Shown one piece after another: positions 1,568 through 18,261 of a DNA stretch of 64,000 bases. This DNA is from an uncultured Myxococcales bacterium (GTDB taxonomy: Bacteria; Myxococcota_A; Polyangia; Palsa-1104; JAEUJZ01), in assembly GCA_964460115.1 (NCBI GenBank), contig CAYWPR010000029.1, positions 4,131-68,130 of the forward strand. Reading direction: 5' to 3'. Within the stretch, counting starts at the first letter, position 1; each line of letters starts with the position of its first letter. The notes under the pieces were generated by a model, which worked only from the letters and a program-made list of their open reading frames with translations, ran no database searches and was not told the DNA's origin. The translations under genes and the position numbers were made by a program.

Positions 1568-1718
1568 CAAAACGCGGCTCATTGCGATATGATGTGGACG
1601 AGTATCGGCAGTGGTAGCCGCTATGCTCCTATTCAATCGCGTCCTTAGCGCCAAAGGACGCTGAATTGCGCATACACACATCCTCTAGATGCTATCTCAG
1701 CGATGAGTGAGGACAGTC

Positions 1719-2132
1719 ATGATGGACCATTGGGGGCATTTTCAAATCAAGCAGGAATTGTTTCTTGGTGATGAGATTTGCATTCTGCGGGCAACCGCTG
1801 CGGATCATTCGCCAGTCGTGCTTAAAATGTCTCGGCAAGATCCCTGCTCGGAGGCGCTGGCGGGCAGGCTGCATCACGAATTGGCTGTCCTAAACAGCTT
1901 GGCCGACGTTCCCGGCGTCATTAAGACCCGGGGCCTCGAGCGCATCGGCGGGCAGCTTGCCCTTGTCTTAGAAGACACCCAGAGCCGATCTCTGCGCGAA
2001 GTGCTTTTGAGCCGCGGGGGGCTGCCGCTTGCCGACGCCTTGCACATCACGCGCAGCGCCGCCGCCATTCTGGAAGCAGTTCATACGGCCGGACTCATTC
2101 ACAAAGACATCAAGCCGCATAAGTCTAATTAG
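1719..2132 (+). pseudogene. N-terminal fragment (kinase N-lobe through the HKDIKP catalytic loop) of a PknK-like Ser/Thr protein kinase, terminated by a stop inside the inserted DNA
   Basis: VVLKM (VAIK Lys), HHELAVL (alpha-C Glu) and HKDIKP (HRD loop) are present. The ORF then reads HKSN-stop at 2130-2132. The matching DFG/APE half resumes at 7521. GAGGA RBS lies 5 nt before ATG 1719. The track's GTG start is at 1707. Confidence 0.75.
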
Positions 2133-2155
2133 CCGCATTTAGCGTCAGATAACAG

Positions 2156-2233
2156 GAATTTGGAAATGGCGTCTCCCAAATTCCTCACGGATACTCGATT
2201 GCGAATTTGCGGAGCAGAGCGAGCCCGGGCTCG
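2156..2233 (-). terminator. Two hairpins downstream of the SDR gene on the minus strand: ggaatttgg/ccaaattcc (2156-2187) and the perfect 16-bp palindrome gcgagcccgggctcgc (2218-2233)
   Basis: Reverse-complement pairing seen directly. Located 12-90 nt 3' of the dprE2-like stop. Confidence 0.35.
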
Positions 2234-2244
2234 CGCATTGACGC

Positions 2245-2982
2245 TTAAAAATTGATCTGCCGCATGACAAAGCGCGGCAGCCGGCGAATCACCATCATCA
2301 CCGGTCCCCACATGCGCGGCGTGTACAGCACCGGCTGGTTGCGATCGATTGCCGCGACGATGTCGCGCGCCACCTGCTCTGGCTCGCCAGCGAAAGGCGG
2401 CGGCTTTAACCCCTGCGTCATGCCGGTTTTGACAAAGCCGGGCTTCACGCAGATGACGCGCAGCCCCTGCGCGTAGAACTTGTGATCGAGCCCCTCAAGA
2501 TAGGCACTGAGGCCAGCTTTGCTGGCGCCGTAGCTTATCACCGGCTTGCGCCCGCGCTCGCCGGCCACGGAACTGACCACGCACAGGGTGCCGCCGCCGC
2601 GTGTAAGTAGCAGCTTGCGAGCATGTTCGCAGAAGACCACGGTGTTGGCAAAGTTCACGCTAAGCACGCGGCGTAAAAGCTCGACGTCGGCTTCCATCGC
2701 TGCTTGCGTAGCGAAAAGCCCGGCGGTGACGATGATTGCATCGACATCGCCGAGTGCCTTTTGCGCAGCGCTAAGCGCGGCGCAAAAGCCCTCTGGCGCT
2801 TCCAGGTCGCAGTGAGCGCTTTTCACCGGCTGTTTGGCACCGCGCATTTCAAGGTCGGCAGCGCTGCGTGAAAGTTCCAGGGCATCGCGGCCAAGCAGAA
2901 ACAGCTCATCGCCGCGCGCGGCGAGCGACCGGGCGACGGCACGGCCAATACCCCTGGTGGCGCCAAGGAGGATGGCTTTCAT
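2245..2982 (-). CDS. dprE2: Short-chain dehydrogenase/reductase, DprE2-like (decaprenylphosphoryl-2-keto-ribose reductase family)
   Basis: GATRGIGRAV Rossmann motif. YGASKAGLSAYLEGL catalytic YxxxK region and C-terminal MWGPVMMVIRRLPRFVMRQ closely parallel mycobacterial DprE2. ATGA start/stop overlap with the upstream FAD oxidase. Confidence 0.6.
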   Translation of the reverse strand: MKAILLGATRGIGRAVARSLAARGDELFLLGRDALELSRSAADLEMRGAKQPVKSAHCDLEAPEGFCAALSAAQKALGDVDAIIVTAGLFATQAAMEADVELLRRVLSVNFANTVVFCEHARKLLLTRGGGTLCVVSSVAGERGRKPVISYGASKAGLSAYLEGLDHKFYAQGLRVICVKPGFVKTGMTQGLKPPPFAGEPEQVARDIVAAIDRNQPVLYTPRMWGPVMMVIRRLPRFVMRQINF

Positions 2983-4358
2983 GGGCGGTCTCCAAACAAG
3001 CGCTCGCTTTGCGCGCTACGAATCTGGTTGTGCGGATCCCACTTGCGTTTTACGTCCAGAAACCGCGCCAGGCGAGGTTCCATGGCGATGAAGTGTTCAC
3101 GGCGCGTAAAGCCGTCCTTGGCCAGGTAAAAGCGGCCCCCGCAGGCCAGAACGCGTTCGTTTAGCGCGTCGATGACCTGCTGCACGTTGTCGCGAATCGG
3201 AATGTCGAGCGCTAGCGAGACCCCGGGTCGAGGAAATGACAGCATTCCTTCTCCTTCTGCACCGCAGTCTTTGATGACGGTCAGAAACGAGGATGCGCCA
3301 TGCTGCGACAGAACTTGCAACATAGCGCGAATTCCGTCCGCGCCCGCGGTGTCGGGAATCACACTTTGATGCTGCGTGACTCCGCGTTTTCCATAGGCCC
3401 GGTTCCAGTGATGCACCCAATCGAGCGGATAAAAGAACGTATCGGCATCGACCACACTTGCGCGGTGCTGCGCCAAGTGTTGGCGATAGACCAAGGTATT
3501 GAATAAGCCGATGGTGGCGCGATTGAGCACCCCGGAAGGCAGCGCGAACGGCATGGTGAGCCGCAACTTGGGCCTCGGAAAGTGCGTCGGCGCCTCGTGC
3601 GCTTCCGCCCAGCGGCCGCAAAATAGGATGCCGCGCCCAAGCTCCTTGCCGCGCGCCATGGTGTCAATCCAGCCGACGGTAAAGGGCCAGCGTTGGCTTG
3701 CTTCTTTGAACTCCGACAGAAACGTGGCGAGATCCGGAATGCGAAAAGTCTCTTGATAGATATACGGCGAAGGCACGCGCACAAGCTGCAGCTCGACCTC
3801 TAGGATATGGCCAGTGAGGCCCATGCCGCCGAGGGTTGCTAGAAACAGCTCAGGCTCGTGTTGGCGTGAGCACTCGATGATGCGTCCGTCGGCGACCCGC
3901 AGCCGCAGCGCGCGCACGTGCCGGCCGATGGTGCCATCGACGTGGTGATTCTTGCCGTGCACGTCCGAGGCGACCATGCCGCCAAGCGTCACGAACTTGG
4001 TGCCCGGCGTCACCGGCGTAAAGAAGCCACGCGGCAGAAACAGCCGATATAGGTCGTTTAAACTGAAGCCCGCCTCGGCGCGCACGATGCCGCTCTGCGC
4101 GTCGAATGACAACACGCGATCGGCGAGCGTAGTCCCGACCACATCGGTCACTGCCGCGGGCGGCAGCGAGGCGTCGCCGTACGAGCGTCCAAGCCCGCGT
4201 GACAGCGTCGCTTGCCGCGTGATGCCCTCGAGATCCTCGGAGCGCACCTCGCGTCCAGGGACAAAAGTACGTCCCCAGCCGCTTAATGATGATTTGCCAA
4301 CCACGACGGGCTTCTTAGCATAAATTCTACACTTTGTGGCGCAGCCGAGAAATGACAT
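2979..4358 (-). CDS. dprE1: FAD-dependent oxidoreductase, DprE1-like (decaprenylphosphoryl-beta-D-ribose 2'-oxidase family)
   Basis: SGWGRT, GLGRSYGD, DVHGKNHH, WNRAYG and FYLAKDGF motifs colinear with DprE1. A possible extended -10 (tgTAGAAT) lies just inside the annotated 5' end, so the true start may be the in-frame GTG a few codons downstream. Confidence 0.65.
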   Translation of the reverse strand: MSFLGCATKCRIYAKKPVVVGKSSLSGWGRTFVPGREVRSEDLEGITRQATLSRGLGRSYGDASLPPAAVTDVVGTTLADRVLSFDAQSGIVRAEAGFSLNDLYRLFLPRGFFTPVTPGTKFVTLGGMVASDVHGKNHHVDGTIGRHVRALRLRVADGRIIECSRQHEPELFLATLGGMGLTGHILEVELQLVRVPSPYIYQETFRIPDLATFLSEFKEASQRWPFTVGWIDTMARGKELGRGILFCGRWAEAHEAPTHFPRPKLRLTMPFALPSGVLNRATIGLFNTLVYRQHLAQHRASVVDADTFFYPLDWVHHWNRAYGKRGVTQHQSVIPDTAGADGIRAMLQVLSQHGASSFLTVIKDCGAEGEGMLSFPRPGVSLALDIPIRDNVQQVIDALNERVLACGGRFYLAKDGFTRREHFIAMEPRLARFLDVKRKWDPHNQIRSAQSERLFGDRP

Positions 4359-4548
4359 CGTGAGGCTGAGCTGCGATGGCGTATGTCGAAGCTCTCAGGG
4401 TTTCGCGCCGCTTTCGCCTCGAACAAGACTTCTAGCCGCAGAATTTTGCTTGCGTCGAAAAGCGGCGCCGACTGCTCAGCCCGCCGTCGAGAAAGGCGCG
4501 GACAGCGAAGCAGAGCAGTCGTGGCGCTTCCTTGTTGCGGCGTGCGGC

Positions 4549-5151
4549 TTACAATTTGCTGGCGTTTTCTGCCAGATAGCTGGCGACGCCGGATGCGGAC
4601 GCAGTCATGCCACTGTCTCCCTTACGCCATCCGGCGGGACAGACTTCGCCATTTACTTCATGAAACTGCAGCGCATCGACGAGGCGCAAAAGCTCGTCCA
4701 TATTTCGCCCTAGCGGCAAATCATTGACGATTTGGGATCGGACGATGCCTTCGCGATCAATCAGAAAAGTCCCGCGCAGCGCGACACCGTCGTTATGCTC
4801 GACTCCATAGGCGCGACAGATTTCGTGCTTCACATCAGCGGCGAGCGTGAAACGGACTTTGCCGATGCCGCCGCGCTCGACCGGCGTTTCACGCCAGGCG
4901 TGGTGTGTAAATTGTGAATCAATCGAGATGCCAATCACCTCGACATTGCGCTTTTGCAACGCCTCGACGCGGTTATCGAGCGCGATAAGTTCGGAGGGAC
5001 AGACAAATGTGAAGTCCAGCGGATAAAAGACAAGTAGACCATACTTGCCGCTAAGGACTTTGGAGAGATGAAAATCCTGCACCATCGCGCCATCTCCAAG
5101 GACGGCCGCGCAGGAGAAATCAGGAGCTTTTTTGCCAACCAAGACCGACAT
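4549..5151 (-). CDS. Typical 2-Cys peroxiredoxin (AhpC/Prx1 type), copy 1
   Basis: FTFVCPSE peroxidatic Cys and EVCPAGW resolving Cys. 200 aa. Confidence 0.85.
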   Translation of the reverse strand: MSVLVGKKAPDFSCAAVLGDGAMVQDFHLSKVLSGKYGLLVFYPLDFTFVCPSELIALDNRVEALQKRNVEVIGISIDSQFTHHAWRETPVERGGIGKVRFTLAADVKHEICRAYGVEHNDGVALRGTFLIDREGIVRSQIVNDLPLGRNMDELLRLVDALQFHEVNGEVCPAGWRKGDSGMTASASGVASYLAENASKL

Positions 5152-5178
5152 GTTTTCGTACCTTTCTTTCGCTTTTTT

Positions 5179-5829
5179 CTATGCCGCTCTGAAACCCGGC
5201 AGCATGAACTCGCCTGCAAAATCGCGCTTCTTGTAACCCGGCTGAAAGTCGCGGGCCAGCTCATTTCGCGTCTCTGGTGTTAGCTCGACGCATTGCAGGG
5301 TGTCAAAGTAGTCGATGCCAAGCTGCGCCGTCTTTTGCGGATCGGCAAGTGCAGAGATCGCTTCGCGATCCAATCGAAAGCCGATGTACTGCACTGCACA
5401 GGTCGGATCGTCGTTGGGAAAAAGCGGCTGCGCTTCAATTGTCTGCATTCCAAGCTGCAGAAAGATAATTCGCGAAGTTCCCGCAAAAAGTTGTTGCGCC
5501 AGCTTTTGTCCGGCGCGGCACGGGCCTCCATGCAGCATTAGCGTTGCGGTTAACTCTCCGCTGCGGGGGATAAGTCGATCATATTCGGCAATTTCCTCGG
5601 CAATGCGCTGCGGGCGCAGGGGGCGTTCCATCCAGGCAATTTCTTGAATCTGCGCCAGCACCGTCTGACGCGACTCAAATAGCAACGAGACGTTCGGTCC
5701 TACTTCTACGCGCCGGCGGCGTTTCAAATCGATAAGCTGGCGACGATAATCAGCACGCAAGCGCTCGTAGACTTCGGTGGGCAGCAGATCGATGGGCTTT
5801 ATCGGGGCCGTGGCTCTTTGGTGGCTCAT
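5179..5829 (-). CDS. DUF3501-family protein, copy 1. Promoter-proximal gene of the bicistron with prx.
   Basis: 216-aa ORF. Size and sequence pattern fit the uncharacterised DUF3501 family. 27-nt gap to prx. Confidence 0.5.
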   Translation of the reverse strand: MSHQRATAPIKPIDLLPTEVYERLRADYRRQLIDLKRRRRVEVGPNVSLLFESRQTVLAQIQEIAWMERPLRPQRIAEEIAEYDRLIPRSGELTATLMLHGGPCRAGQKLAQQLFAGTSRIIFLQLGMQTIEAQPLFPNDDPTCAVQYIGFRLDREAISALADPQKTAQLGIDYFDTLQCVELTPETRNELARDFQPGYKKRDFAGEFMLPGFRAA

Positions 5830-5865
5830 GGCATCTGTCTTATTTGAAATTGAAAATCCTTTTCA

Positions 5866-5893
5866 TTTATATGCATCCGTCGAGCTCTGTCAA
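5866..5893 (-). promoter_or_regulatory. Near-consensus sigma70 promoter for DUF3501-prx. Reads TTGACA-N16/17-TATAAAT on the minus strand.
   Basis: rc of 5888-5893 is ttgaca and rc of 5865-5872 is atataaat. About 30 nt upstream of ATG 5829. Confidence 0.55.
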
Positions 5894-6088
5894 GACGCAA
5901 AACTTTGTCCCAAAGTTGTCCGTAGCGCTGCCAAGTGCGCTTTTTTTCGCAGGAAAATCGAGCGCGAATTCTCAGCCGCAGAATTTTGCTTGCGTCGAAA
6001 AGCGGCGCCGACTGCTCAGCCCGCCGTCGAGAAAGGCGCGGACAGCGAAGCAGAGCAGTCGTGGCGCTTCCTTGTTGCGGCGTGCGGC

Positions 6089-6691
6089 TTACAATTTGCT
6101 GGCGTTTTCTGCCAGATAGCTGGCGACGCCGGATGCGGACGCAGTCATGCCACTGTCTCCCTTACGCCATCCGGCGGGACAGACTTCGCCATTTACTTCA
6201 TGAAACTGCAGCGCATCGACGAGGCGCAAAAGCTCGTCCATATTTCGCCCTAGCGGCAAATCATTGACGATTTGGGATCGGACGATGCCTTCGCGATCAA
6301 TCAGAAAAGTCCCGCGCAGCGCGACACCGTCGTTATGCTCGACTCCATAGGCGCGACAGATTTCGTGCTTCACATCAGCGGCGAGCGTGAAACGGACTTT
6401 GCCGATGCCGCCGCGCTCGACCGGCGTTTCACGCCAGGCGTGGTGTGTAAATTGTGAATCAATCGAGATGCCAATCACCTCGACATTGCGCTTTTGCAAC
6501 GCCTCGACGCGGTTATCGAGCGCGATAAGTTCGGAGGGACAGACAAATGTGAAGTCCAGCGGATAAAAGACAAGTAGACCATACTTGCCGCTAAGGACTT
6601 TGGAGAGATGAAAATCCTGCACCATCGCGCCATCTCCAAGGACGGCCGCGCAGGAGAAATCAGGAGCTTTTTTGCCAACCAAGACCGACAT
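6089..6691 (-). CDS. Typical 2-Cys peroxiredoxin, copy 2 (identical)
   Basis: Identical translation to 4549..5151. Confidence 0.85.
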   Translation of the reverse strand: MSVLVGKKAPDFSCAAVLGDGAMVQDFHLSKVLSGKYGLLVFYPLDFTFVCPSELIALDNRVEALQKRNVEVIGISIDSQFTHHAWRETPVERGGIGKVRFTLAADVKHEICRAYGVEHNDGVALRGTFLIDREGIVRSQIVNDLPLGRNMDELLRLVDALQFHEVNGEVCPAGWRKGDSGMTASASGVASYLAENASKL

Positions 6692-6718
6692 GTTTTCGTA
6701 CCTTTCTTTCGCTTTTTT

Positions 6719-7369
6719 CTATGCCGCTCTGAAACCCGGCAGCATGAACTCGCCTGCAAAATCGCGCTTCTTGTAACCCGGCTGAAAGTCGCGGGCCAGC
6801 TCATTTCGCGTCTCTGGTGTTAGCTCGACGCATTGCAGGGTGTCAAAGTAGTCGATGCCAAGCTGCGCCGTCTTTTGCGGATCGGCAAGTGCAGAGATCG
6901 CTTCGCGATCCAATCGAAAGCCGATGTACTGCACTGCACAGGTCGGATCGTCGTTGGGAAAAAGCGGCTGCGCTTCAATTGTCTGCATTCCAAGCTGCAG
7001 AAAGATAATTCGCGAAGTTCCCGCAAAAAGTTGTTGCGCCAGCTTTTGTCCGGCGCGGCACGGGCCTCCATGCAGCATTAGCGTTGCGGTTAACTCTCCG
7101 CTGCGGGGGATAAGTCGATCATATTCGGCAATTTCCTCGGCAATGCGCTGCGGGCGCAGGGGGCGTTCCATCCAGGCAATTTCTTGAATCTGCGCCAGCA
7201 CCGTCTGACGCGACTCAAATAGCAACGAGACGTTCGGTCCTACTTCTACGCGCCGGCGGCGTTTCAAATCGATAAGCTGGCGACGATAATCAGCACGCAA
7301 GCGCTCGTAGACTTCGGTGGGCAGCAGATCGATGGGCTTTATCGGGGCCGTGGCTCTTTGGTGGCTCAT
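6719..7369 (-). CDS. DUF3501-family protein, copy 2 (identical)
   Basis: Identical translation to 5179..5829. Confidence 0.5.
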   Translation of the reverse strand: MSHQRATAPIKPIDLLPTEVYERLRADYRRQLIDLKRRRRVEVGPNVSLLFESRQTVLAQIQEIAWMERPLRPQRIAEEIAEYDRLIPRSGELTATLMLHGGPCRAGQKLAQQLFAGTSRIIFLQLGMQTIEAQPLFPNDDPTCAVQYIGFRLDREAISALADPQKTAQLGIDYFDTLQCVELTPETRNELARDFQPGYKKRDFAGEFMLPGFRAA

Positions 7370-7383
7370 GGCATCTGTCTTAT

Positions 7384-10300
7384 TTGAAATTGAAAATCCT
7401 TTTCATTTATATGCATCCGTCGAGCTCTGTCAAGACGCAAAACTTTGTCCCAAAGTTGTCCGTAGCGCTGCCAAGTGCGCTTTTTTTCGCAGGAAAATCG
7501 AGCGCGAATTCTCAGCCGCAAAACATCCTGTTTGAGGAGCAGCAAAAAAAGGTATGGCTGCTTGATTTCGGCTTGGCCTCGCGCTTGGCTTTTGAATCGA
7601 CGGTGGCGCTTATCCCCGAGGCGCTGGAGGGCACGCTGGCCTATATTTCGCCCGAGCAAACCGGCCGCACTTCGCGCACGCTGGATGCGCGAACGGATCT
7701 TTATTCGCTGGGCGTAACCCTGTTCGAGATGATTAGCGGCCGCCATCCTTTTCTGGAAACCGATCCACTGGCTTTGGTGCATGCTCATTTGGCCAAGCTG
7801 CCTCCCGCTTTGGACGCGCTTATGCCCGAGGTGCCTTCGTCCGTCGCGCGTATCGTCGAGCGACTGCTGGCCAAAGACCCGGACAAGCGGTATCAGACGG
7901 CGCGCGGCTTGATGCACGATCTAGACAAGTGCCTGGAACAATGGCAGCGGGAAGGAAAAATTTCGCCATTTCCAGTGGCCCAGCGCGATTTTTCGCCCAA
8001 GCTGCGTTTGCCCGAGCAGCTTATCGGACGTGAAGCGGAAGTCGAAGTGCTGCGTTTCGCCTTTGAACGCGCCGCCAACGGGGCCGTAGAGCTTTTGCTG
8101 GTCGGCGGTCCTTCCGGCATTGGCAAAACCGCCTTGATTCGCTCTGTGTACCGCGAAATGGCTCGAAGGGGTCGCGGACTTTTGCTAAGCGGCAAACACG
8201 ATCAACTGGCCCGTTCCGTTCCTTATGCCGCGCTGGTGCAAGCCTTTGGCGGACTGATGCAGAATATCGCCGCCAGTCCTCGGGCCACGGTAGATGCTTG
8301 GAAGGAGTGTATTGAGACAGCGATGGGGGGCAACGCCCGCGTCATTGCCGACCTGATTCCTGAACTGAACTGGGTCATGGGCAATCTGCCGCCTGTGCCC
8401 GAACTTCCCAGCGATCAAGCCTACAATCGCTTAAAGCTGGCCTGGATTTACTTTGTTCAAGCTGTGCTCAGCAAAAGCGAGCCGTTGGTGCTTTTTCTGG
8501 ATGATTTGCAATGGATCGATCCGGCTTCTTTGGAACTGCTCAAGGTGCTTCTGACCGATGCGGAACGCCGCAGTATTTTGCTGATTGCCGTCTATCGCGA
8601 TAACGAAATCGACGCCACCCATCCTCTGTGGAATCTGGCGGATGCAGTGGTGAAAAACGGCGATCGAGTGTCCAAGCAGACACTGCGTCCGCTTGAAATT
8701 TTTGAAATTGCGCAGTGGTTGTCGGTTGCTTTGTGCGCGCTGCCCGAACATGTCGCGCCGCTGGCCACAGTGCTCTGGAATAAGACGCGCGGAAATCCCT
8801 TTTTCCTGGGGCAATTGCTGCTGGAAATGTATCGCAGCAAAAGCCTTTTGCGAAATCTCGACAGCGGAGTTTGGATCTGGAATTCGGCGCAAATCGAAAC
8901 TCTGGCGGTGACGGATAACGTTGTCGATTTGATGCAATCCAAGCTGCGCGACCTGCCGGAAGCAACTTGCAGCTTGCTCGGTTTGGCGGCTTGCGCCGGG
9001 CACGTATTTACGCTGGATGAGCTGGCTGTGCTGTCGGCATCGGCCCCGCAGGCAGTGGCCCAGGCCCTTTGGCCAGCGCTGCGTGAAGGAATTCTTATCA
9101 CCGCAGATCTACAGGCTCAATATGTGCAAGCCCTGGTGGAAGAGAATCAGCCGCTTGGCCAATTGCAAAGCCGCTACCAGTTCTTGCACGATCGCGTGCA
9201 GCAGGCCTGTCATCAGCTTATTGCACCTAGCGAGCAGAAGCGCGCCCATCTGGACATTGGACGCCGCTTTCTAGGTCGATATAAAGCGCAAGGCGGAACA
9301 GCGCAGGAACTGCTAGAACTCGTGCGGCACCTGAACTTGGGCGTGGACTGTATGGACTCGCCGCAAGAAGTTCGAGACCTGGTTCAGTTGAACCTGGACG
9401 CCGCGCGCAAAGCCAAGGCCGCAGGTGTGTATCGCTTGATGGCAGAGCTGGCCCTACAGGGATCCAATTTGCTTGGCCCTGGGCAGTGGGAAAACGATTT
9501 CGAATTGGCTGCGCAACTGGCCATCGAGCGCGTCGAAGCGACCTATATGTTGCGGCAAGCCGATGAAGTCGAAGCGCTGGTGCTGTCCCTGCTTGATCGG
9601 AATCTACCGCTTATCACCATCTGGACTCTGCAAGAGATTCGAATGCGTGCGCACTTGATCAGCGGAAAGATGCAAAAAGCTTCGGCACTTGGAAAAACCA
9701 TCTTTGGCCAAGCAGGCAGAAAGATTCCCGATACTGTCGAAGTGCTCATGGCGGAATCAGTCTCGATGCTGAAAGCAATCGATGCGTGGCGCGAACGACT
9801 GGGTGAAGAGGGCCTTTCGGCCATTCCACTGGATTCTGATCCCCTGCGCACGACGCAGGATGCCGCGACTTTTACCTGGATATATTGCTTGATGGCCAGT
9901 GGCGAGTTTCCGCTTATCACCTGGGGCTTGCCGAATGCCATTTCTAGCGTGATCGAAAAGGGCACGCAGACGCGACATTCCGCGCTGCTATTGGCGACGG
10001 CGACAAACTTATGGGGGCCGATCTTTGATCAGCCCCGCGAGGCTGCCTGGTTGGCAATCGCCGCGACCTGGCTGCGGAAAAACCTGAATTCACCTGCCGC
10101 CGATTATGTTGACGTTATCGTCGGTAGTGTTCTTTTGTATCGGCATCATGCACGTGAATCGCTGCCGATTTTCGAACGAGTGATTGCCGATGGATTGGAA
10201 CAGGGAAATTTTTCGGCGTTAAGTGGCGGATGCTTTTGTGCCATCCGCGACAGTTTGATTTGGCCCGGAGCGCCGCTGTCTTTGACGCGTCGCGAGATCG

Positions 10301-12507
10301 AAAAAAAGATGCTACTGGTTCGTCGTGCGGGCGATTCCATTGGCCAAAACACCATCGAGCTTTCCGCTTCCTATGTTGAATGCTTGCTAAATAGGGCGCC
10401 GCTAAGTTGCCGCCCGGACGGTGGAATTCTTCCTTTTGGTTCCAAGGAACTACTCGCGCGCGGCGACGGTCTAAACGGCAGCTTGGCCGATGTTTTGGAA
10501 CTGCCCCTATTTCTAATGATTTGCCAACCTGCGCAGGCCTATCAGCACGCTCAGTGGGCGATGCAACATCAATTTATGTTGCGCACGGTAGCCCTGGGAA
10601 GCGACATCCTGCTTTGCTTGGCGCTGGCGGCTGCGGCCCTGATGGATACGACCACTGCGCCGGAGGAACGAGCCCAGCGGCAACAGGAACTGGAACAAAG
10701 CATTGTGCGCTTTCGCTATCTGGCAGAGGGCTGCGCCGAGAACTTTTTGCACAAGCTGTACCTGCTGGAAGCCGAGCAGGCGCGGCTGGCCGGCAAGGAC
10801 GACGTGGCAATGGCCAAGTACGATGCTGCCATCGATTATGCGCACAAGCAGGATTTTCGGCAGATTGTCGCCCTGGCCGCGCAGCTTTGCGGACAATACC
10901 ATCAGAAGGCCGGCCGACGTCGTATGGCTGCGCTGTACCTTCGCGAATCTCGCAGCGCTTATGAACGTTGGGAAGCGCATGCCATCGTCCGTTTTATGGA
11001 CGAGCACTATGCCGACTACTTGCAAGAACCCGCCGAGGCGGCGATTTCGGCAATTCCCGCATTGGCTCCGACTCGAAACTCCACATCAAGACCCGGCAAT
11101 GCTGCGACCGCGACGATTCGCTCGAGCCGAACGACGCATTCAGGAGGGGCGCTGCTAGATGCCGAAACAGTGATTCGCGCAACCCAGGCCTTGGCCAGCG
11201 AATTGCATCCGGAACGCATCGTCGCGCAACTGATGCATCTAGTCGTCGAAAACGCCGGCGCGCAGCGTGGGGCCCTTTTTCTGACGCAAGGGGATGCGCT
11301 TTTTATGGCCGCTAGGCTTATTACGTCTACGGCGCGCATCGAGACGAATTTGCACATTCCTTTGTTCGAGTGCACAGACGTTCCTCAGATCATCATTGAT
11401 GCGGTCGCGCGCACTCGGCAGCCATTGTTTTTGTCGGATGCACCCGCTGATTCGCGGTTTGGACAAGAACCGCTCTTGCGAGCTTCCAATTCCCATTCCG
11501 TACTGGTCATTCCGCTTTTGCATCAGGCGCGGCTCGTCGGCGCTTTGTACCTAGAGCATGAGGAACGCAATGCATTTTCGGCACAAAGCATGAATTTGCT
11601 AGGAGTCCTGTCCGCACAGACCGCCATTGCGCTGGAGAACGCCAACCTTTATGACGCGTTGCGAAAAAGCAACGTCGAACTTGAATCGCAAGTCGCCGCG
11701 CGCACCACCGAGCTTCAGGACACCCTTTTGGACCTATGGAGCGAGATGGATCTGGCGACCAAGATCCAAACCGTACTTTTGCCCAAGGACGGCGTTTACG
11801 GCGGCCATGAATTTGCCGCGACGATGCGTCCGGCGGCCAAGGTCGGTGGCGATTACTACGATGTCTTTGAACATGCCGGCGCGACGTGGGTTCTTATCGG
11901 CGATGTATCCGGCCACGGCGTCAGCGCCGGCCTGATTATGATGATGGTGCAGTCCGCAATACGGACGCTGGTCGGCGCAAAGGAAAATGTGATTCCCAGT
12001 CCCGCCGAGGTGCTGACTCGCGTCAACGCGGGAATCGCCAGCAATCTGCAAAAAATCGGCAAAGGACAATACATGACCCTTGTGGCCTTGTGTGTCGAGG
12101 GAAGCAAAGTCCGATTTGCCGGATTGCATCTTGATCTGCTTGTCTATCGTGCGGCTTTGCAAACCGTAGAGCACATCAAGACCGAGGGAATCTATATCGG
12201 CTGGGTCGAGGATGCCAGCGGGCTTTACTTCGACACCACCCTGACCCTAGATGCGGACGATATACTGCTTTTGTACACCGATGGTTTGACCGAGGCGCGC
12301 AAGGGAAGCGTGCTTTTAGGCCTCGAGGATGTGCAGCGAATATTGCTAGAAAAAGGTCAAGCGCAAGCCACCCCGCGGCAAATCATTGATGCCACGTTTG
12401 GTCTTCTGGAAGGAACGCAATGCAGCGACGACATCTCTGTCGTGACGCTAAAAGTAGGCGAATCACCAAGTAACGTGGCCGCAGCTATCTCGCAAAACCA
12501 GGTCTAA
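7384..12507 (+). CDS. Disrupted giant signalling protein. C-terminal kinase lobe (DFG, GTLAYISPEQ), STAND/AAA ATPase (GGPSGIGKT; LVLFLDDLQW), TPR/helical region, GAF domain and C-terminal PP2C/SpoIIE phosphatase. The first 45 codons (7384-7518) derive from the inserted DNA.
   Basis: Host-derived coding starts at 7521 (QNILFEEQQKKVWLLDFG). PknK-like kinase-AAA-TPR architecture. PP2C features: GDVSGHGVSAG, and YTDGLTEA, which contains the DG pair. Confidence 0.7.
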   Translation: MKLKILFIYMHPSSSVKTQNFVPKLSVALPSALFFAGKSSANSQPQNILFEEQQKKVWLLDFGLASRLAFESTVALIPEALEGTLAYISPEQTGRTSRTLDARTDLYSLGVTLFEMISGRHPFLETDPLALVHAHLAKLPPALDALMPEVPSSVARIVERLLAKDPDKRYQTARGLMHDLDKCLEQWQREGKISPFPVAQRDFSPKLRLPEQLIGREAEVEVLRFAFERAANGAVELLLVGGPSGIGKTALIRSVYREMARRGRGLLLSGKHDQLARSVPYAALVQAFGGLMQNIAASPRATVDAWKECIETAMGGNARVIADLIPELNWVMGNLPPVPELPSDQAYNRLKLAWIYFVQAVLSKSEPLVLFLDDLQWIDPASLELLKVLLTDAERRSILLIAVYRDNEIDATHPLWNLADAVVKNGDRVSKQTLRPLEIFEIAQWLSVALCALPEHVAPLATVLWNKTRGNPFFLGQLLLEMYRSKSLLRNLDSGVWIWNSAQIETLAVTDNVVDLMQSKLRDLPEATCSLLGLAACAGHVFTLDELAVLSASAPQAVAQALWPALREGILITADLQAQYVQALVEENQPLGQLQSRYQFLHDRVQQACHQLIAPSEQKRAHLDIGRRFLGRYKAQGGTAQELLELVRHLNLGVDCMDSPQEVRDLVQLNLDAARKAKAAGVYRLMAELALQGSNLLGPGQWENDFELAAQLAIERVEATYMLRQADEVEALVLSLLDRNLPLITIWTLQEIRMRAHLISGKMQKASALGKTIFGQAGRKIPDTVEVLMAESVSMLKAIDAWRERLGEEGLSAIPLDSDPLRTTQDAATFTWIYCLMASGEFPLITWGLPNAISSVIEKGTQTRHSALLLATATNLWGPIFDQPREAAWLAIAATWLRKNLNSPAADYVDVIVGSVLLYRHHARESLPIFERVIADGLEQGNFSALSGGCFCAIRDSLIWPGAPLSLTRREIEKKMLLVRRAGDSIGQNTIELSASYVECLLNRAPLSCRPDGGILPFGSKELLARGDGLNGSLADVLELPLFLMICQPAQAYQHAQWAMQHQFMLRTVALGSDILLCLALAAAALMDTTTAPEERAQRQQELEQSIVRFRYLAEGCAENFLHKLYLLEAEQARLAGKDDVAMAKYDAAIDYAHKQDFRQIVALAAQLCGQYHQKAGRRRMAALYLRESRSAYERWEAHAIVRFMDEHYADYLQEPAEAAISAIPALAPTRNSTSRPGNAATATIRSSRTTHSGGALLDAETVIRATQALASELHPERIVAQLMHLVVENAGAQRGALFLTQGDALFMAARLITSTARIETNLHIPLFECTDVPQIIIDAVARTRQPLFLSDAPADSRFGQEPLLRASNSHSVLVIPLLHQARLVGALYLEHEERNAFSAQSMNLLGVLSAQTAIALENANLYDALRKSNVELESQVAARTTELQDTLLDLWSEMDLATKIQTVLLPKDGVYGGHEFAATMRPAAKVGGDYYDVFEHAGATWVLIGDVSGHGVSAGLIMMMVQSAIRTLVGAKENVIPSPAEVLTRVNAGIASNLQKIGKGQYMTLVALCVEGSKVRFAGLHLDLLVYRAALQTVEHIKTEGIYIGWVEDASGLYFDTTLTLDADDILLLYTDGLTEARKGSVLLGLEDVQRILLEKGQAQATPRQIIDATFGLLEGTQCSDDISVVTLKVGESPSNVAAAISQNQV
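7406..7433 (-). promoter_or_regulatory. Second copy of the TTGACA-N17-TATAAAT promoter
   Basis: Same sequence at a +1540 offset. Confidence 0.55.
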
Positions 12508-15727: not shown

Positions 15728-16627
15728 TTATTCGCTTTGTGCAAAGCGCACGGTCACTTGATCGGGATGGGCCCGATTGTCCAAATACACCATTACCGGG
15801 CGCTGTTCTTGCGCGATGTCGCCGCCGCCTTTTTGCAGCGTCTGCCACACCGCATCAAAACGCCCAAGCCGAATGTCCAGATCCTGCGGCTCTCCTTTGC
15901 CCAGCCGAATCGCCAGGCCGTCTTGGGTATAAAGCGTTACGCCGACGAATCGGTCGATGTGTACCTCGCCTATCGTTGGCCGCCCGCGGCCGTTTTGGTA
16001 GCGAAAAAGGGCGGACAGCGCCGTCTGTATCTGCGTGCGCGCATAGGCGGGTTCTAACGTGTAGACGCTGCGGCCGATGCCTGTTACCACCGGCAAATGA
16101 ACGCCTTCGCTTGGGACGGCGCGTTTAAAGGCAGTGCCCTCTGCATCGCACAAGTAAAGAGCATCCAAGGCCAAAAGCGCGACAGGAACGTGTTCGGATA
16201 CGGCGATGTGCAAGGTAGCGGGCAGCTCGCGCCGCACCGTGGCGCTTTTTAGCCATGGCTCGCGCAGCAGCCGAGTTTCCACCTGCTGCGGATCGATGCG
16301 CAAAAGATTCGTATGAAGCTGAACTTCAGCCCGCTGTTCGATAAGTGCTGCACTTAAGCGCTGCGTGCCGCTTACGCGCAGCTTTTTCAATGCAAAACGC
16401 GAGCTGTGATAGACAAAATAGTGTGCGCCGACCACGGCTGAAATCAGCAGGCCGCAGGCGCCTAATGCAATAAGTCCGCGCCACAGCAAAACCCAGCGCC
16501 GGCGCCATGCCTCGCGAGAGGATTGCACCGATTTTTGGAAATGCTCGCCGCTTTTGGCGACGCCCGCGCTACGCAATCGGCGGTTTCGTCGACGAAAAAA
16601 TAGAAAAGGCGCCCCCCGCGAGGCCAT
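15728..16627 (-). CDS. FtsQ/DivIB-like POTRA-domain membrane protein
   Basis: Single N-terminal TM helix followed by a POTRA-like region (KKLRVSGTQRLSAALIEQ...). Not in a dcw cluster, so the name is tentative. Confidence 0.4.
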   Translation of the reverse strand: MASRGAPFLFFRRRNRRLRSAGVAKSGEHFQKSVQSSREAWRRRWVLLWRGLIALGACGLLISAVVGAHYFVYHSSRFALKKLRVSGTQRLSAALIEQRAEVQLHTNLLRIDPQQVETRLLREPWLKSATVRRELPATLHIAVSEHVPVALLALDALYLCDAEGTAFKRAVPSEGVHLPVVTGIGRSVYTLEPAYARTQIQTALSALFRYQNGRGRPTIGEVHIDRFVGVTLYTQDGLAIRLGKGEPQDLDIRLGRFDAVWQTLQKGGGDIAQEQRPVMVYLDNRAHPDQVTVRFAQSE

Positions 16628-16752
16628 GGACGCAGTCTACGGGCGCTTCTTTGTGCTGTCCAAAAATTCACGGCATCAGAAGGCATGGCCTCGGCAAATT
16701 TTCAGAGCCAAGCCGCTTGGCCTGCCTGGTCCGTGTCTTGTGGAGCGCGAAA

Positions 16753-16962
16753 TCAGGCGGCCGGCCTGTCTTCCCAGTAGAACAGCGTTATCGCCAGACA
16801 GTGAAAGGCTTCATCACTGGATTGCGTGACCACGGTGTCGACGACCTTCAATTTGGGCCGTTCGGCCAGCCAGGCAGATACTTTTTCGCCAAGCTGATCG
16901 CGTTCCTGCGACATGGTGGCCGAAAAGACTTTGACGCCGTTGAATTGATTGCTGTCCATCAT
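16753..16962 (-). CDS. Small hypothetical protein (69 aa) with a predicted beta-alpha-beta-beta ferredoxin-like pattern
   Basis: ATGATG start. Sits in the divergent region between the FtsQ-like and thioredoxin genes. No SD. Coding status uncertain. Confidence 0.3.
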   Translation of the reverse strand: MMDSNQFNGVKVFSATMSQERDQLGEKVSAWLAERPKLKVVDTVVTQSSDEAFHCLAITLFYWEDRPAA

Positions 16963-17052
16963 GAATGTAGATACAAACTGCCGAAATTTTTGCCGTCAAG
17001 CAAGATGCGACGCGAAGCAGCCAATTGCGTCGCTTCATGGTATGTACGCAGC

Positions 17053-17961
17053 ATGGATGATCGTGAATTCGCAAGTTCGGACTTCATCTTTGACGTCACC
17101 ACGGAGGATTTTCAAACCCAGGTACTTGATCGTTCGCAACAAGTGCCGGTGGTCGTCGATTTCTGGGCCGCTTGGTGTGGTCCCTGCCGCATGCTGGGTC
17201 CGGTGCTGGAACGATCCATTTCGATGCTCGGCGGTCGAGTTTGCCTGGCCAAAGTAGATACCGACAAGCAGCCGCGGCTGGCGCAGCAGTTTCGCATCTC
17301 GGGCATTCCCGCGGTCAAAGCCTTTTTCAAGGGACGCGTCGTCAACGAATTTATTGGGGCTCGCGATCAGCGCTTTGTCGCCACTTTTTTGGAATCTCTC
17401 ATCCCGTCTCCAACCGCACAAGCCATGGAACAAGCCACGGCGCTGCTTGCCGAGCGCAATTTTGCCGAAGCGGCCAGCGTTTTAAAGCCGCTGCTCAATG
17501 AACAGACCGAATCAGCAGACAGTCAGGGCCTTAGCGAAGAAAAGCGCCGCCAATTGCGCCTGCTTTTGGCCGAGGTTTATCTTGGCCTAGGTCAAAAGCA
17601 CGACGCCGAAGTGCTGCCGCTTTTAGACGCCCTCGATCCGCGCAGCACCGAAGCCGAGCGTGCCGAAATTCTGCGCCAGGTGCTGGCCTTTTTTCAAAAT
17701 GCCAATGCCGCCCGCGGCGACGAGACAGAGCGTTTGGCCAGCCGCGAAGATGACGCCGAAGCGCGATTTGTTTTGGCCGCGCAGCTAGCTCGCCGCGGCG
17801 ACTACTCGGCCAGTTTCGAGCACCTGCTGTGGCTTATCGCCAACCAGCGCGGCTTTCGCGATGACGCGGCCAAAAAAGCCATGCTCGCTTTGTTTCAGTA
17901 CCTGGGCTCTGAGCACTCAGATGTACGCGAATATAGGCGCCGTCTGCAGGTGATTTTGTAG
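17053..17961 (+). CDS. Thioredoxin-domain protein with C-terminal TPR region (CnoX/YbbN-like chaperedoxin)
   Basis: WCGPC active site with a canonical thioredoxin fold, then TPR-like helices. The track ORF begins at 16507, but that 5' part overlaps the FtsQ-like gene, so ATG 17053 (MDDREF) was chosen. Confidence 0.7.
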   Translation: MDDREFASSDFIFDVTTEDFQTQVLDRSQQVPVVVDFWAAWCGPCRMLGPVLERSISMLGGRVCLAKVDTDKQPRLAQQFRISGIPAVKAFFKGRVVNEFIGARDQRFVATFLESLIPSPTAQAMEQATALLAERNFAEAASVLKPLLNEQTESADSQGLSEEKRRQLRLLLAEVYLGLGQKHDAEVLPLLDALDPRSTEAERAEILRQVLAFFQNANAARGDETERLASREDDAEARFVLAAQLARRGDYSASFEHLLWLIANQRGFRDDAAKKAMLALFQYLGSEHSDVREYRRRLQVIL

Positions 17962-17964
17962 CCG

Positions 17965-18261
17965 ATGACTTGGTACCAAGCGGAGGTCATCGTTCGGCCG
18001 CGTCCCGGGGTACGCGATCCGCAAGCCGACGCCGTCGGCGAAGTGCTGCGCGGCCTGGCCCCGGCACAGGACCAAGCAAAAAACGGCCGGCTGCACGTCG
18101 ATTGCGTCGGTCGTTATTTGCGCCTTTTTCTCGAAGCCGAATTCGAAGCGCCGGCGCGCGCTCGCATCGAATCCCTATGTCGCGAGCTGCTCGTCAATCC
18201 CCACCTTGAAGTCTTTCAGTTCACGGTGGAGCCATGCTCACCCCCCCAAGCGCTGCCGTAG
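17965..18261 (+). CDS. purS: Phosphoribosylformylglycinamidine synthase subunit PurS
   Basis: 98 aa. MTWYQAEVIVRPRPGVRDPQADAV matches the PurS pattern. Lies 3 bp after the trx gene. Confidence 0.8.
   Translation: MTWYQAEVIVRPRPGVRDPQADAVGEVLRGLAPAQDQAKNGRLHVDCVGRYLRLFLEAEFEAPARARIESLCRELLVNPHLEVFQFTVEPCSPPQALP

What the first reader, a model, noticed from the sequence alone, without database searches (positions are those of the whole stretch)
2120..7520. 5.4-kb cargo block cleanly splits a PknK-like Ser/Thr kinase gene between the HRD loop and DFG
The ORF at 1719-2132 encodes kinase subdomains I-VIb and ends ...HKDIKP-HKSN-stop. The reading frame resumes at 7521 with QNILFEEQ...DFG...APE. 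Deleting 2120..7520 recreates a seamless 1800-aa kinase-STAND-GAF-PP2C gene. The block is flanked by agccgca on both sides (2113-2119 and 7514-7520). It has multi-frame stops at its left edge. It has no transposase, integrase or terminal inverted repeats. It carries metabolic and redox cargo (dprE1/dprE2-like, 2 x DUF3501-prx) on the opposite strand. The downstream kinase fragment is left as a chimeric ORF whose first 45 codons come from the insert. This looks like insertion by microhomology or an unrecognised mobile mechanism, or else an assembly chimera.
Basis: seen in the sequence. Interest (0 to 1): 0.8.

Follow-up and report, generated by a model that had tools for sequence, protein, structure and literature searches.

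The report
Kinase gene split by heptamer-bounded operons
A large signalling-kinase gene in an uncultured, probably myxobacterial, genome has been cut in two by the insertion of two ordinary chromosomal operons, and every boundary carries the same 7-base sequence, which points to copy-error recombination at short homology rather than a new mobile element, though the latter is not ruled out.

Summary
Joining 2119 to 7521 restores one 1795-aa Pkinase-AAA_16-GAF-PP2C ORF. It has a single continuous kinase-domain match and a gap-free HKDIKPQN loop.

Independent short-read contigs from two SRA runs span the left junction, the right junction and the internal X|U boundary. The insertion is therefore not an assembly chimera.

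- The '2 x DUF3501-prx' is an exact 1540-bp tandem duplication (4434-5973 / 5974-7513). Its right end coincides exactly with the insert's right junction.
- AGCCGCA sits at every boundary: 2113, 4434, 5974 and 7514, plus an extra copy at 2131.
- One independent contig carries only one copy of the duplicated unit.

The block is two self-contained, host-like operons: DprE1/DprE2-like, and DUF3501-peroxiredoxin. Each is a conserved gene pair found in other contexts in relatives. I found no recombinase, terminal inverted repeats, att-like arms, structured RNA or plasmid/phage counterpart.

Best reading (about 0.5): short-homology illegitimate recombination or template switching inserted the operons, and the peroxiredoxin operon was then amplified in tandem. 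The kinase is now a split pseudogene.

Rival (about 0.2): an unknown trans-acting, AGCCGCA-specific recombination system that builds a cassette array.

Interest is moderate.

The parts
1719..2132 (+). Kinase N-terminal fragment (137 aa as called in NCBI and Logan). It holds kinase subdomains I-VIb. The last 4 codons and the stop are read from the insert.
   Evidence: Pfam Pkinase profile 17-127. The exact 137-aa product is on an independent Logan contig and on the 68.9-kb NCBI contig.
2113..2119 (+). AGCCGCA, left copy. This is the original kinase sequence, codons (A)AG CCG CA(A) = K-P-Q.
2120..2137 (+). An 11-bp stop-rich spacer, TAAGTCTAATT, which contains the palindrome CTAATTAG, followed by an extra AGCCGCA (2131-2137).
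   Evidence: No second copy of the spacer in the window.
2120..4433 (-). Module X (2314 bp): a DprE2-like SDR gene (2245-2982) and a DprE1-like FAD oxidase gene (2979-4304, ORF open to 4358), with their own upstream and downstream spacers.
   Evidence: Pfam and NCBIfam. The same gene pair occurs in other contexts in relatives L007, L008 and L025.
4434..4440 (+). AGCCGCA at the X|U boundary. Its left context, aaGACtTCtAGCCGCA, matches the kinase target, aaGACaTCaAGCCGCA, at 14 of 16 positions.
   Evidence: Logan contig L010 ends exactly at 4440.
4434..5973 (-). Module U, copy 1 (1540 bp): a 2-Cys peroxiredoxin gene (4549-5151), a DUF3501 gene (5179-5829) and a 144-bp upstream region.
   Evidence: The pair is conserved in Myxococcota.
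5974..7513 (-). Module U, copy 2, 100% identical to copy 1: peroxiredoxin (6089-6691) and DUF3501 (6719-7369). This copy is absent from Logan contig L002.
7514..7520 (+). AGCCGCA, right copy. It is both the end of the tandem repeat and the right junction of the insert.
7522..12507 (+). Kinase C-terminal fragment (1661 codons): the kinase C-lobe (DFG...SPE), an AAA_16 STAND NTPase, GAF and a PP2C/SpoIIE phosphatase. It is called as a 1698-aa chimeric ORF from ATG 7411, or 1707 aa from TTG 7384. There is no Shine-Dalgarno sequence upstream of 7411.

Best explanation
A PknK-like STAND Ser/Thr kinase gene was inactivated when two self-contained chromosomal operons were joined into its catalytic-loop codons by illegitimate recombination at a 7-nt homology. 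Module X is DprE1/DprE2-like. Module U is DUF3501-peroxiredoxin. The homology is AGCCGCA, extended to 14 of 16 nt on the X side.

The most likely route is replicative template switching:
1. A nascent 3' end ...AGCCGCA leaves the kinase template.
2. It primes on another AGCCGCA and copies the operons.
3. It returns to the same kinase heptamer. This leaves a copy of the heptamer on each side, which mimics a target-site duplication.

The peroxiredoxin operon was then duplicated head-to-tail between the two AGCCGCA copies that flank it, or was copied twice in the same event. A duplication of this kind is easily lost again by homologous recombination, which would explain the 1-copy and 2-copy versions.

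Shown:
- the split;
- the seamless restoration;
- read-supported junctions;
- the exact tandem repeat;
- the heptamer at each boundary;
- the absence of mobile-element hallmarks;
- host-like composition.

Inferred:
- the template-switch mechanism;
- the order of events;
- that the kinase fragments are non-functional.
For: - Seamless restoration of the kinase.
- Junctions J1, J3 and J5 lie on independent k=31 contigs from two runs.
- Exact 1540-bp tandem repeat in phase with the heptamer.
- A single-U contig is a 3982/3982-bp match to the window with one U copy removed.
- No recombinase, transposase or HUH gene in the block, in its alternative-frame ORFs, or among the large window ORFs tested.
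- No terminal inverted repeats.
- No significant arm similarity between junction flanks.
- The boundary fold is no better than shuffled sequence, z = -0.6.
- No Rfam family.
- GC, GC3 and codon use of the block's genes fall within the host range.
- X and U are each conserved gene pairs that sit in other contexts in relatives, without AGCCGCA flanks.
- Only five microhomology pairs of at least 7 bp could give a minimal amplicon of the prx operon, and the observed pair is one of them.
- Published E. coli amplifications are tandem repeats bordered by 4-15 bp of microhomology, attributed to template switching (PMC1428787).
Against: Too many things coincide at one heptamer for a comfortable one-off explanation.
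- The duplication endpoint equals the insertion junction. That is 1 of 220-1873 possible microhomology pairs if the amplicon size is unconstrained, and many of those pairs are longer than 7 bp.
- An extra AGCCGCA lies 11 bp inside the left edge. The chance is about 0.006 at the window's density of the heptamer.
- Logan contig L010 stops exactly at the end of the X|U heptamer. I estimate about a 1% chance for a random contig end. By de Bruijn logic this implies a second continuation after X's AGCCGCA in that sample.
- The left contexts share GAMWTCW just before the heptamer.
- No donor copy or empty site was found, so neither the direction nor the mechanism of the event is observed directly.
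Confidence: 0.5

Rival explanations
1. The modules are cassettes moved by a sequence-specific enzyme encoded elsewhere in the genome, either a recombinase or a HUH-type single-strand nuclease. The enzyme cuts and joins at AGCCGCA, perhaps with a left half-site GAMWTCW. X and U would have been added one after another at the same kinase site. U can excise, re-insert or tandemise, which would give 0, 1 or 2 copies.
For: - The same heptamer lies at J1, J3, J4 and J5, plus a fifth copy at 2131.
- The duplication is in exact phase with the junction.
- U copy number differs between assemblies.
- L010 ends exactly at 4440, which suggests an alternative partner for X's right end.
- The left contexts are similar, 14 of 16 between the kinase target and the X end.
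- Each module is a complete operon with its own upstream and downstream spacers.
- X lies outside the DprE1-SDR-glycosyltransferase context of its two closest relatives.
Against: - No candidate enzyme in the large ORFs tested across the 64 kb.
- No significant arm similarity or inverted symmetry around the core.
- No structure better than shuffled sequence.
- The heptamer is common: 33 copies in the window on both strands, and 14 non-junction plus-strand copies lack the left motif.
- The same modules in relatives are not flanked by it.
- The block is absent from plasmid, phage and viral collections.
- The contig-end argument rests on a single contig.
Confidence: 0.2
2. The insertion is real, but the second U copy is an artefact of the deposited assembly, or represents only a minority of cells. 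It could come from a loop traversed twice, or from contigs concatenated at a repeat boundary. The true structure would be N|X|U|K with one U.
For: - L002 (SRR8797212) runs K|U|X unbranched with one U and matches the single-U reconstruction exactly.
- No fetched contig contains the U|U junction.
- The two copies are 100% identical.
Against: - A U-to-U edge cannot arise from a 7-bp overlap in a k-mer assembler, so some reads must contain that junction. They could come from a tandem copy or from a circle.
- The duplication is in exact phase with real microhomology, as true microhomology-mediated duplications are (PMC1428787).
Confidence: 0.25
3. The block is a programmed intervening element, like the nifD, fdxN or hupL elements of Anabaena or the skin element in Bacillus sigK. 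It would be excised at the 7-bp repeats in a particular cell type to restore the kinase gene.
For: - In-silico excision restores a perfect ORF.
- Both kinase fragments are free of further stops or frameshifts over 1795 codons.
- The lineage appears to be myxobacterial, a group that has developmental programmes.
Against: - Known intervening elements encode their own recombinase. This block encodes none.
- The protein cluster holding the C-terminal fragment has a single member, so no restored allele is on record.
- The cargo is housekeeping or redox genes that would be lost on excision.
- Intact fragments are equally explained by a recent event.
Confidence: 0.03
4. The whole arrangement is a chimera, either of the assembly or of the sequencing library, or the kinase is naturally encoded as two genes.
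For: - The source is a metagenome-type assembly.
- The junction homology is very short.
Against: - Three junctions were recovered independently, in two runs, at 100% identity.
- The N-terminal fragment ends inside the catalytic loop, in insert-derived codons, and lacks DFG/APE. All homologues are continuous across this point.
Confidence: 0.03

Closest known systems
Microhomology-mediated tandem duplication/amplification and long-distance template switching (E. coli lac amplification; FoSTeS/MMBIR-type events)
   Same: - Head-to-tail exact repeat bordered by a short, G/C-rich microhomology. Here it is 7 nt; the published range is 4-15 bp (PMC1428787).
- Imperfect extended homology next to the junction.
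- No dedicated enzyme or site is required.
- The duplication is unstable, so 1-copy and 2-copy versions coexist.
- The cargo, a peroxiredoxin operon, is plausibly selectable.
   Different: - Here the same heptamer is used for an insertion into a gene as well as for the duplication.
- A fifth copy of the heptamer sits beside the left junction.
- The inserted DNA is non-adjacent, ectopic operons rather than a local segment.
Integron gene cassettes / CALIN arrays
   Same: - An array of recombinase-less modules in one orientation.
- Each boundary is marked by the same 7-bp core.
- New units appear at one end of the array.
- Circular or tandem forms are conceivable.
   Different: - The core AGCCGCA/TGCGGCT does not fit GTTRRRY.
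- No attC-like imperfect palindrome; the fold gives z = -0.6.
- The modules carry their own promoters and two genes each.
- No IntI in the window.
- The array sits inside a coding sequence.
IS200/IS605 and IS91/ISCR-type HUH elements (peel-and-paste or rolling-circle transposition next to a short specific target)
   Same: - No terminal inverted repeats.
- Insertion immediately 3' of a short specific sequence, which is also found at the element's other end.
- Alternative ends at further copies of that sequence.
   Different: - No TnpA or Rep gene.
- No conserved subterminal hairpins.
- The cargo is far larger than, and unlike, known non-autonomous derivatives.
Developmentally excised intervening elements (Anabaena nifD/fdxN/hupL elements; Bacillus skin in sigK)
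   Same: - A regulatory or enzymatic gene is interrupted by kilobases of DNA.
- The interrupting DNA is flanked by short direct repeats.
- Precise excision would restore the ORF.
   Different: - Those elements encode their own recombinase (XisA, XisF, XisC, SpoIVCA), and excision has been demonstrated for them.
- Neither is the case here.

Membership tests
DDE transposon / insertion sequence (autonomous or MITE-like) | Transposase gene in the element, or a matching one nearby | tested here: not met
   Pfam, NCBIfam and PHROGs scans of all block ORFs, including alternative-frame ORFs, and of about 38 of the 46 window ORFs of at least 200 aa found none.
DDE transposon / insertion sequence (autonomous or MITE-like) | Terminal inverted repeats | tested here: not met
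   No inverted repeat pairs the two ends, 2120... and ...7513.
DDE transposon / insertion sequence (autonomous or MITE-like) | Target-site duplication of fixed length | tested here: met
   A 7-bp direct repeat, AGCCGCA, lies at 2113 and 7514. The same heptamer also bounds the internal modules, which a target-site duplication does not explain.
Integron cassette array / CALIN | attC sites: inverse core RYYYAAC and core GTTRRRY closing an imperfect palindrome | tested here: not met
   The core is AGCCGCA/TGCGGCT. An inverse copy lies 102 bp away (4543), but the fold of 4425-4560 is no better than shuffled sequence, z = -0.62.
Integron cassette array / CALIN | IntI integrase and attI adjacent to the array (not required for CALIN) | tested here: not met
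   No tyrosine recombinase among the window ORFs tested.
IS200/IS605 or IS91-type HUH element | HUH transposase, and conserved subterminal hairpins at both ends | tested here: not met
   No HUH protein. The ends of X and U share no significant similarity or hairpin.
IS200/IS605 or IS91-type HUH element | Insertion 3' of a fixed short target that also ends the element | tested here: met
   Every module follows an AGCCGCA and ends with one. The pattern is compatible but not specific.
Programmed intervening element (nifD/skin type) | Element-encoded site-specific recombinase | tested here: not met
Programmed intervening element (nifD/skin type) | Precise excision restores the interrupted ORF | tested here: met
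   In silico only.
Programmed intervening element (nifD/skin type) | Excised or restored allele observed | tested here: inconclusive
   The 90% protein cluster of the C-terminal fragment has one member. There is no JGI metagenome match to the K-side junction 30-mer. Raw reads could not be searched.
Microhomology-mediated duplication / template-switch rearrangement | Novel junctions carry only a few bp of homology, with exact head-to-tail copies | tested here: met
   7 bp at each junction and 1540-bp copies at 100% identity. This matches the 4-15 bp range in PMC1428787.
Microhomology-mediated duplication / template-switch rearrangement | Copy-number instability of the duplicated unit | tested here: met
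   Two U copies in the window and one in Logan contig L002.
Microhomology-mediated duplication / template-switch rearrangement | Donor template identifiable (native locus of X and U) | not testable with these tools
Contigs pass through X and U unbranched in SRR8797212, which argues against a second identical copy there.
PknK-like STAND Ser/Thr kinase (the interrupted gene) | N-terminal Pkinase, then AAA_16 STAND NTPase, then C-terminal sensor/effector domains | tested here: met
   Pkinase, AAA_16, GAF and SpoIIE/PP2C after reconstitution. The closest homologues are 53-56% identical over the kinase domain.

The most novel reading that the evidence does not exclude
AGCCGCA, with a weak left half-site GAMWTCW, is the crossover site of an undescribed trans-acting recombination system in this myxobacterial lineage. 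It moves whole promoter-bearing operons as recombinase-less cassettes and stacks them into an array at one site. Here that site lies inside a kinase gene, and the cassette copy number varies from 0 to 2 within the population.
Probability: 0.15. Interest if true: 0.8.

Novelty: new member of a known kind. Interest (0 to 1): 0.35.

Why it matters
Under the ordinary reading, this is a clean natural example of three things in an uncultured bacterium. Short-homology replication errors relocated complete operons. They destroyed a large regulatory gene. They immediately amplified an oxidative-stress operon. That makes it useful as a well-resolved case of structural variation in a metagenome-derived genome, and as a warning that 'TSD-like' repeats do not imply a transposon.

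If the heptamer turns out to be a true recombination site, it would define a new way of mobilising multi-gene, promoter-bearing cassettes without any element-encoded enzyme. That would be of real interest for the study of genome plasticity.

Tried and rejected
1. Intact orthologue or empty site.
- The N-terminal 256 aa of the restored kinase found nothing above 56% identity among 5.8 billion proteins.
- Scans of genome contigs and metagenome contigs found nothing.
- The cluster of the C-terminal fragment has one member.

2. Donor locus.
- The closest DprE1-like relatives (74-83% aa) carry the gene pair in other contexts. The similarity is confined to coding sequence.
- DUF3501-prx relatives are at most 60% identical.

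3. attC-like, hairpin or terminator structure at the boundaries: no better than shuffled sequence.

4. Extended att arms: local alignments of all flank pairs were non-significant.

5. A second template for the 11-bp spacer: none in the window.

6. Hidden transposase in alternative frames, or phage-like genes: none.

7. Group II intron or other structured RNA: no Rfam hit at E <= 0.1.

8. Foreign origin by composition: the block lies within the host range.

9. The block as a unit on plasmids, phages or viral contigs: only gene-level distant matches.

10. Conserved kinase/DUF3501-prx synteny as evidence that U is native at this position.
- A PknK-like gene lies within 10 kb in several Sorangium loci. 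It is only 33-36% identical, and its distance and orientation vary.
- It is absent in other Sorangium loci and in Enhygromyxa. Paraliomyxa shows only a 172-aa kinase-domain match about 6 kb away.
- I judged this uninformative.

11. Kinase relic at X's right end: the similarity to the kinase stops about 9 nt beyond the heptamer (direct reading).

12. A literature search for the SRA runs found nothing.

Full report

Yes.
- ORF 1707/1719-2132 (+) matches Pfam Pkinase profile positions 17-127.
- ORF 7384-12507 (+) matches positions 126-260. It continues with AAA_16, GAF and SpoIIE/PP2C domains.
- The sequence reads ...ATCAAGCCGCA|TAAGTCTAATTAG... on the left and ...CTCAGCCGCA|AAACATCCTG... on the right.
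- Joining 2119 to 7521 gives an uninterrupted ORF of 1795 aa from ATG 1719.
- The joined protein gives one continuous Pkinase match, residues 26-266 against profile 19-260, at 116.8 bits. The separate pieces score 36.2 and 63.6 bits.
- The restored HKDIKPQN loop aligns without a gap to six homologues. H, K, D, P and N are invariant.
- There are stops in all three frames within 30 nt of the left edge. The chimeric start of the downstream ORF was also verified: 45 insert-derived codons from TTG 7384, or 36 from ATG 7411.

This is far beyond chance. A kinase gene has been split.

**2. Is it an assembly artefact?**

Not the insertion.
- The exact 137-aa N-terminal fragment and the 1698-aa C-terminal fragment are recorded on an NCBI contig of 68,904 bp. 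That contig is evidently the source of the window.
- Both fragments are also recorded independently in Logan k=31 assemblies of two SRA runs.
- L003 (SRR8797212) equals window 1642-3799 and spans the left junction.
- L001 (SRR8797211) equals window 14023-6578 and spans the right junction.
- L002 (SRR8797212) spans the right junction, all of U, and the X|U boundary. All three are 100% identical to the window.
- A 7-bp overlap cannot create false k-mer edges, so reads must cross these joins.

**3.

- The two DUF3501-prx copies are an exact tandem repeat of period 1540. Position i equals position i+1540 for i = 4434-5980. It is the only repeat in the 64 kb.
- The repeat ends at 7520, exactly at the right junction of the insert.
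- AGCCGCA therefore stands at 2113 (kinase|X), 4434 (X|U), 5974 (U|U) and 7514 (U|kinase). A fifth copy lies at 2131, 11 bp inside the left edge.
- The reverse complement of L002 matches the window with one U copy removed over all 3982 bp. It does not match the window as deposited.
- So U is single-copy in at least one read set. The U|U junction is seen only in the deposited contig.

**4. Anatomy of the block**

Module X (2120-4433):
- It encodes, on the minus strand, a DprE2-like SDR and a DprE1-like FAD oxidase. NCBIfam gives 150 and 376 bits, both below the equivalog cut-offs, so they are 'like' rather than orthologues.

Module U (1540 bp):
- It encodes a typical 2-Cys peroxiredoxin (PRK15000-type, 298 bits) and a DUF3501 protein, plus 144 bp upstream of DUF3501 and 108 bp downstream of prx.

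Both gene pairs are conserved modules elsewhere:
- DprE1-SDR occurs in JGI and Logan relatives at 74-83% aa identity, always in other neighbourhoods.
- The two closest relatives (L007 and L025) share a convergent glycosyltransferase directly downstream. That gene is missing here.
- DUF3501-prx is adjacent and single-copy in 8 of the 9 myxobacterial loci fetched (six Sorangium, Paraliomyxa, Enhygromyxa), and in a further Sorangium locus, L011. The ninth locus, L012, shows only a 51-residue prx fragment beside DUF3501.
- Neither module is flanked by AGCCGCA in relatives.

Composition and surroundings:
- GC, GC3 and codon usage of the four genes lie inside the range of the other window genes.
- The block has no counterpart as a unit on plasmids, phages or viral contigs.
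- Best hits for the kinase, DprE1 and DUF3501 all point to Myxococcota. The lineage is poorly sampled.
- The window is otherwise core chromosome: FtsQ, PurL, PurF, PGI, FBPase, FadJ and others.

**5. Tests for mobile-element hallmarks**

All were negative.
- No transposase, integrase or HUH protein in the block, in its alternative-frame ORFs, or among the large window ORFs tested.
- No terminal inverted repeats.
- Local alignment of every pair of junction flanks is non-significant.
- The 4434-4549 interval, bounded by AGCCGCA and TGCGGCT, folds no better than shuffled sequence, z = -0.6.
- No Rfam family.

The only extra similarity is position-anchored:
- kinase target: aaGACaTCaAGCCGCA;
- X right end: aaGACtTCtAGCCGCA, which matches the target at 14 of 16 positions;
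- U right end: GAATTCTcAGCCGCA.

**6. Mechanism**

The conservative model is illegitimate recombination at short homology, most simply replicative template switching.
- A nascent end ...AGCCGCA leaves the kinase template, primes at another AGCCGCA, copies the operons, and returns to the same kinase heptamer. This leaves a pseudo-TSD.
- The tandem U then arises between the two flanking heptamers, or by one more switch in the same event.
- It is readily lost again by homologous recombination. That accounts for the 1-copy and 2-copy versions.
- This matches published bacterial amplifications: tandem repeats bordered by 4-15 bp of microhomology, attributed to template switching (PMC1428787).
- A peroxiredoxin operon is a plausible target of dosage selection.
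- If the amplicon must be minimal, only five microhomology pairs of at least 7 bp are available, and the observed pair is one of them.

**7. Why I do not give this model more than about 0.5**

- If amplicon size is free, there are 220-1873 candidate pairs, many longer than 7 bp. Re-use of the junction heptamer is then unexpected.
- The extra heptamer at 2131 has a chance of about 0.006 at the window's density of the heptamer.
- Logan contig L010 (SRR8797211) ends exactly at 4440, the last base of the X|U heptamer.
- With k=31, a U|U edge alone would end that contig at 4463. An end at 4440 implies that X's ...AGCCGCA has a second continuation in that sample. This is my inference. I estimate about a 1% chance that it is a random contig end.

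Taken together, these points keep alive an AGCCGCA-specific, trans-acting cassette mechanism (about 0.2). No positive evidence for an enzyme or an extended site exists. The idea that the second U copy is an assembly artefact or a minority form (about 0.25) is compatible with either model.

**8. Other readings**

- A programmed intervening element, of the nifD or skin type, would need an element-encoded recombinase. None is present, and no restored allele is on record. I put this at about 0.03.
- A naturally split kinase is excluded. The N-terminal fragment ends in insert-derived codons inside the catalytic loop, and all homologues are continuous there.
- Both kinase fragments are still free of stops and frameshifts over 1795 codons, and the U copies are identical. 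The events are therefore recent, or the STAND-GAF-PP2C part is still under selection. No Shine-Dalgarno sequence precedes ATG 7411.

**9. Verdict**

This is a real, read-supported split of a PknK-like kinase gene by two host-like operons, with a heptamer-phased tandem duplication. The best classification is a new instance of microhomology-mediated structural variation. A minority possibility is an undescribed heptamer-specific cassette system. Read-level analysis of SRR8797211 and SRR8797212 would decide between them.

Noticed in passing
window 4549-5829 and 6089-7369; loci L011, L013-L020: DUF3501 is paired with a 2-Cys peroxiredoxin here. It is also paired with a full-length peroxiredoxin in 9 of the 10 myxobacterial loci fetched (Sorangium L011 and L013-L018, Paraliomyxa L019, Enhygromyxa L020); L012 shows only a short prx fragment. 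The literature describes DUF3501 as co-localised almost exclusively with aerobic-type rubrerythrin and an Fe-S oxidoreductase (PMC5114695). This suggests DUF3501 is a general partner of peroxide-scavenging enzymes.
   Followed up: partly
Logan contig L010 = window 4440..2852 (SRR8797211): The contig stops exactly at the last base of the X|U heptamer. By k=31 graph logic this implies a second sequence following X's AGCCGCA in that sample. The alternative continuation could not be retrieved.
   Followed up: partly
window 2120-2137: An 11-bp stop-rich spacer, TAAGTCTAATT, contains the 8-bp palindrome CTAATTAG and is sandwiched between two AGCCGCA copies. No template for it was found elsewhere in the window. 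Its origin is unexplained.
   Followed up: partly
loci L011, L013, L016-L018 (Sorangium): A Pkinase-AAA_16-GAF protein, 33-36% identical to the window kinase, lies 1.7-6 kb from the DUF3501-prx pair in several Sorangium genomes. Its distance and orientation vary, and it is absent in L012, L014 and L020. In L015 and L019 there is only a short kinase-domain match, 5-9 kb away. This could be a loose functional association, or simply the high kinase density of these genomes.
   Followed up: partly
window 18234-21137: A single 967-aa ORF combines PurQ (residues 7-219) and PurL (248-965), so the FGAM synthase subunits are fused.
   Followed up: no
window 3559, 3901 (and 2131, 4434, 5974): AGCCGCA is over-represented on the plus strand of the non-redundant insert. 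There are 5 copies in 3.86 kb, against 12 in the remaining 58.6 kb of the window. Two of the five lie inside the DprE1-like coding region, antisense. This may simply reflect Ala-Ala codons in a GC-richer gene.
   Followed up: no
window 15728-16627 (-) and 16507-17961 (+): The longest ORFs for the FtsQ-like gene and for the thioredoxin-TPR gene overlap by about 120 bp at their 5' ends, and the genes are divergent. At least one true start is probably further downstream.
   Followed up: no
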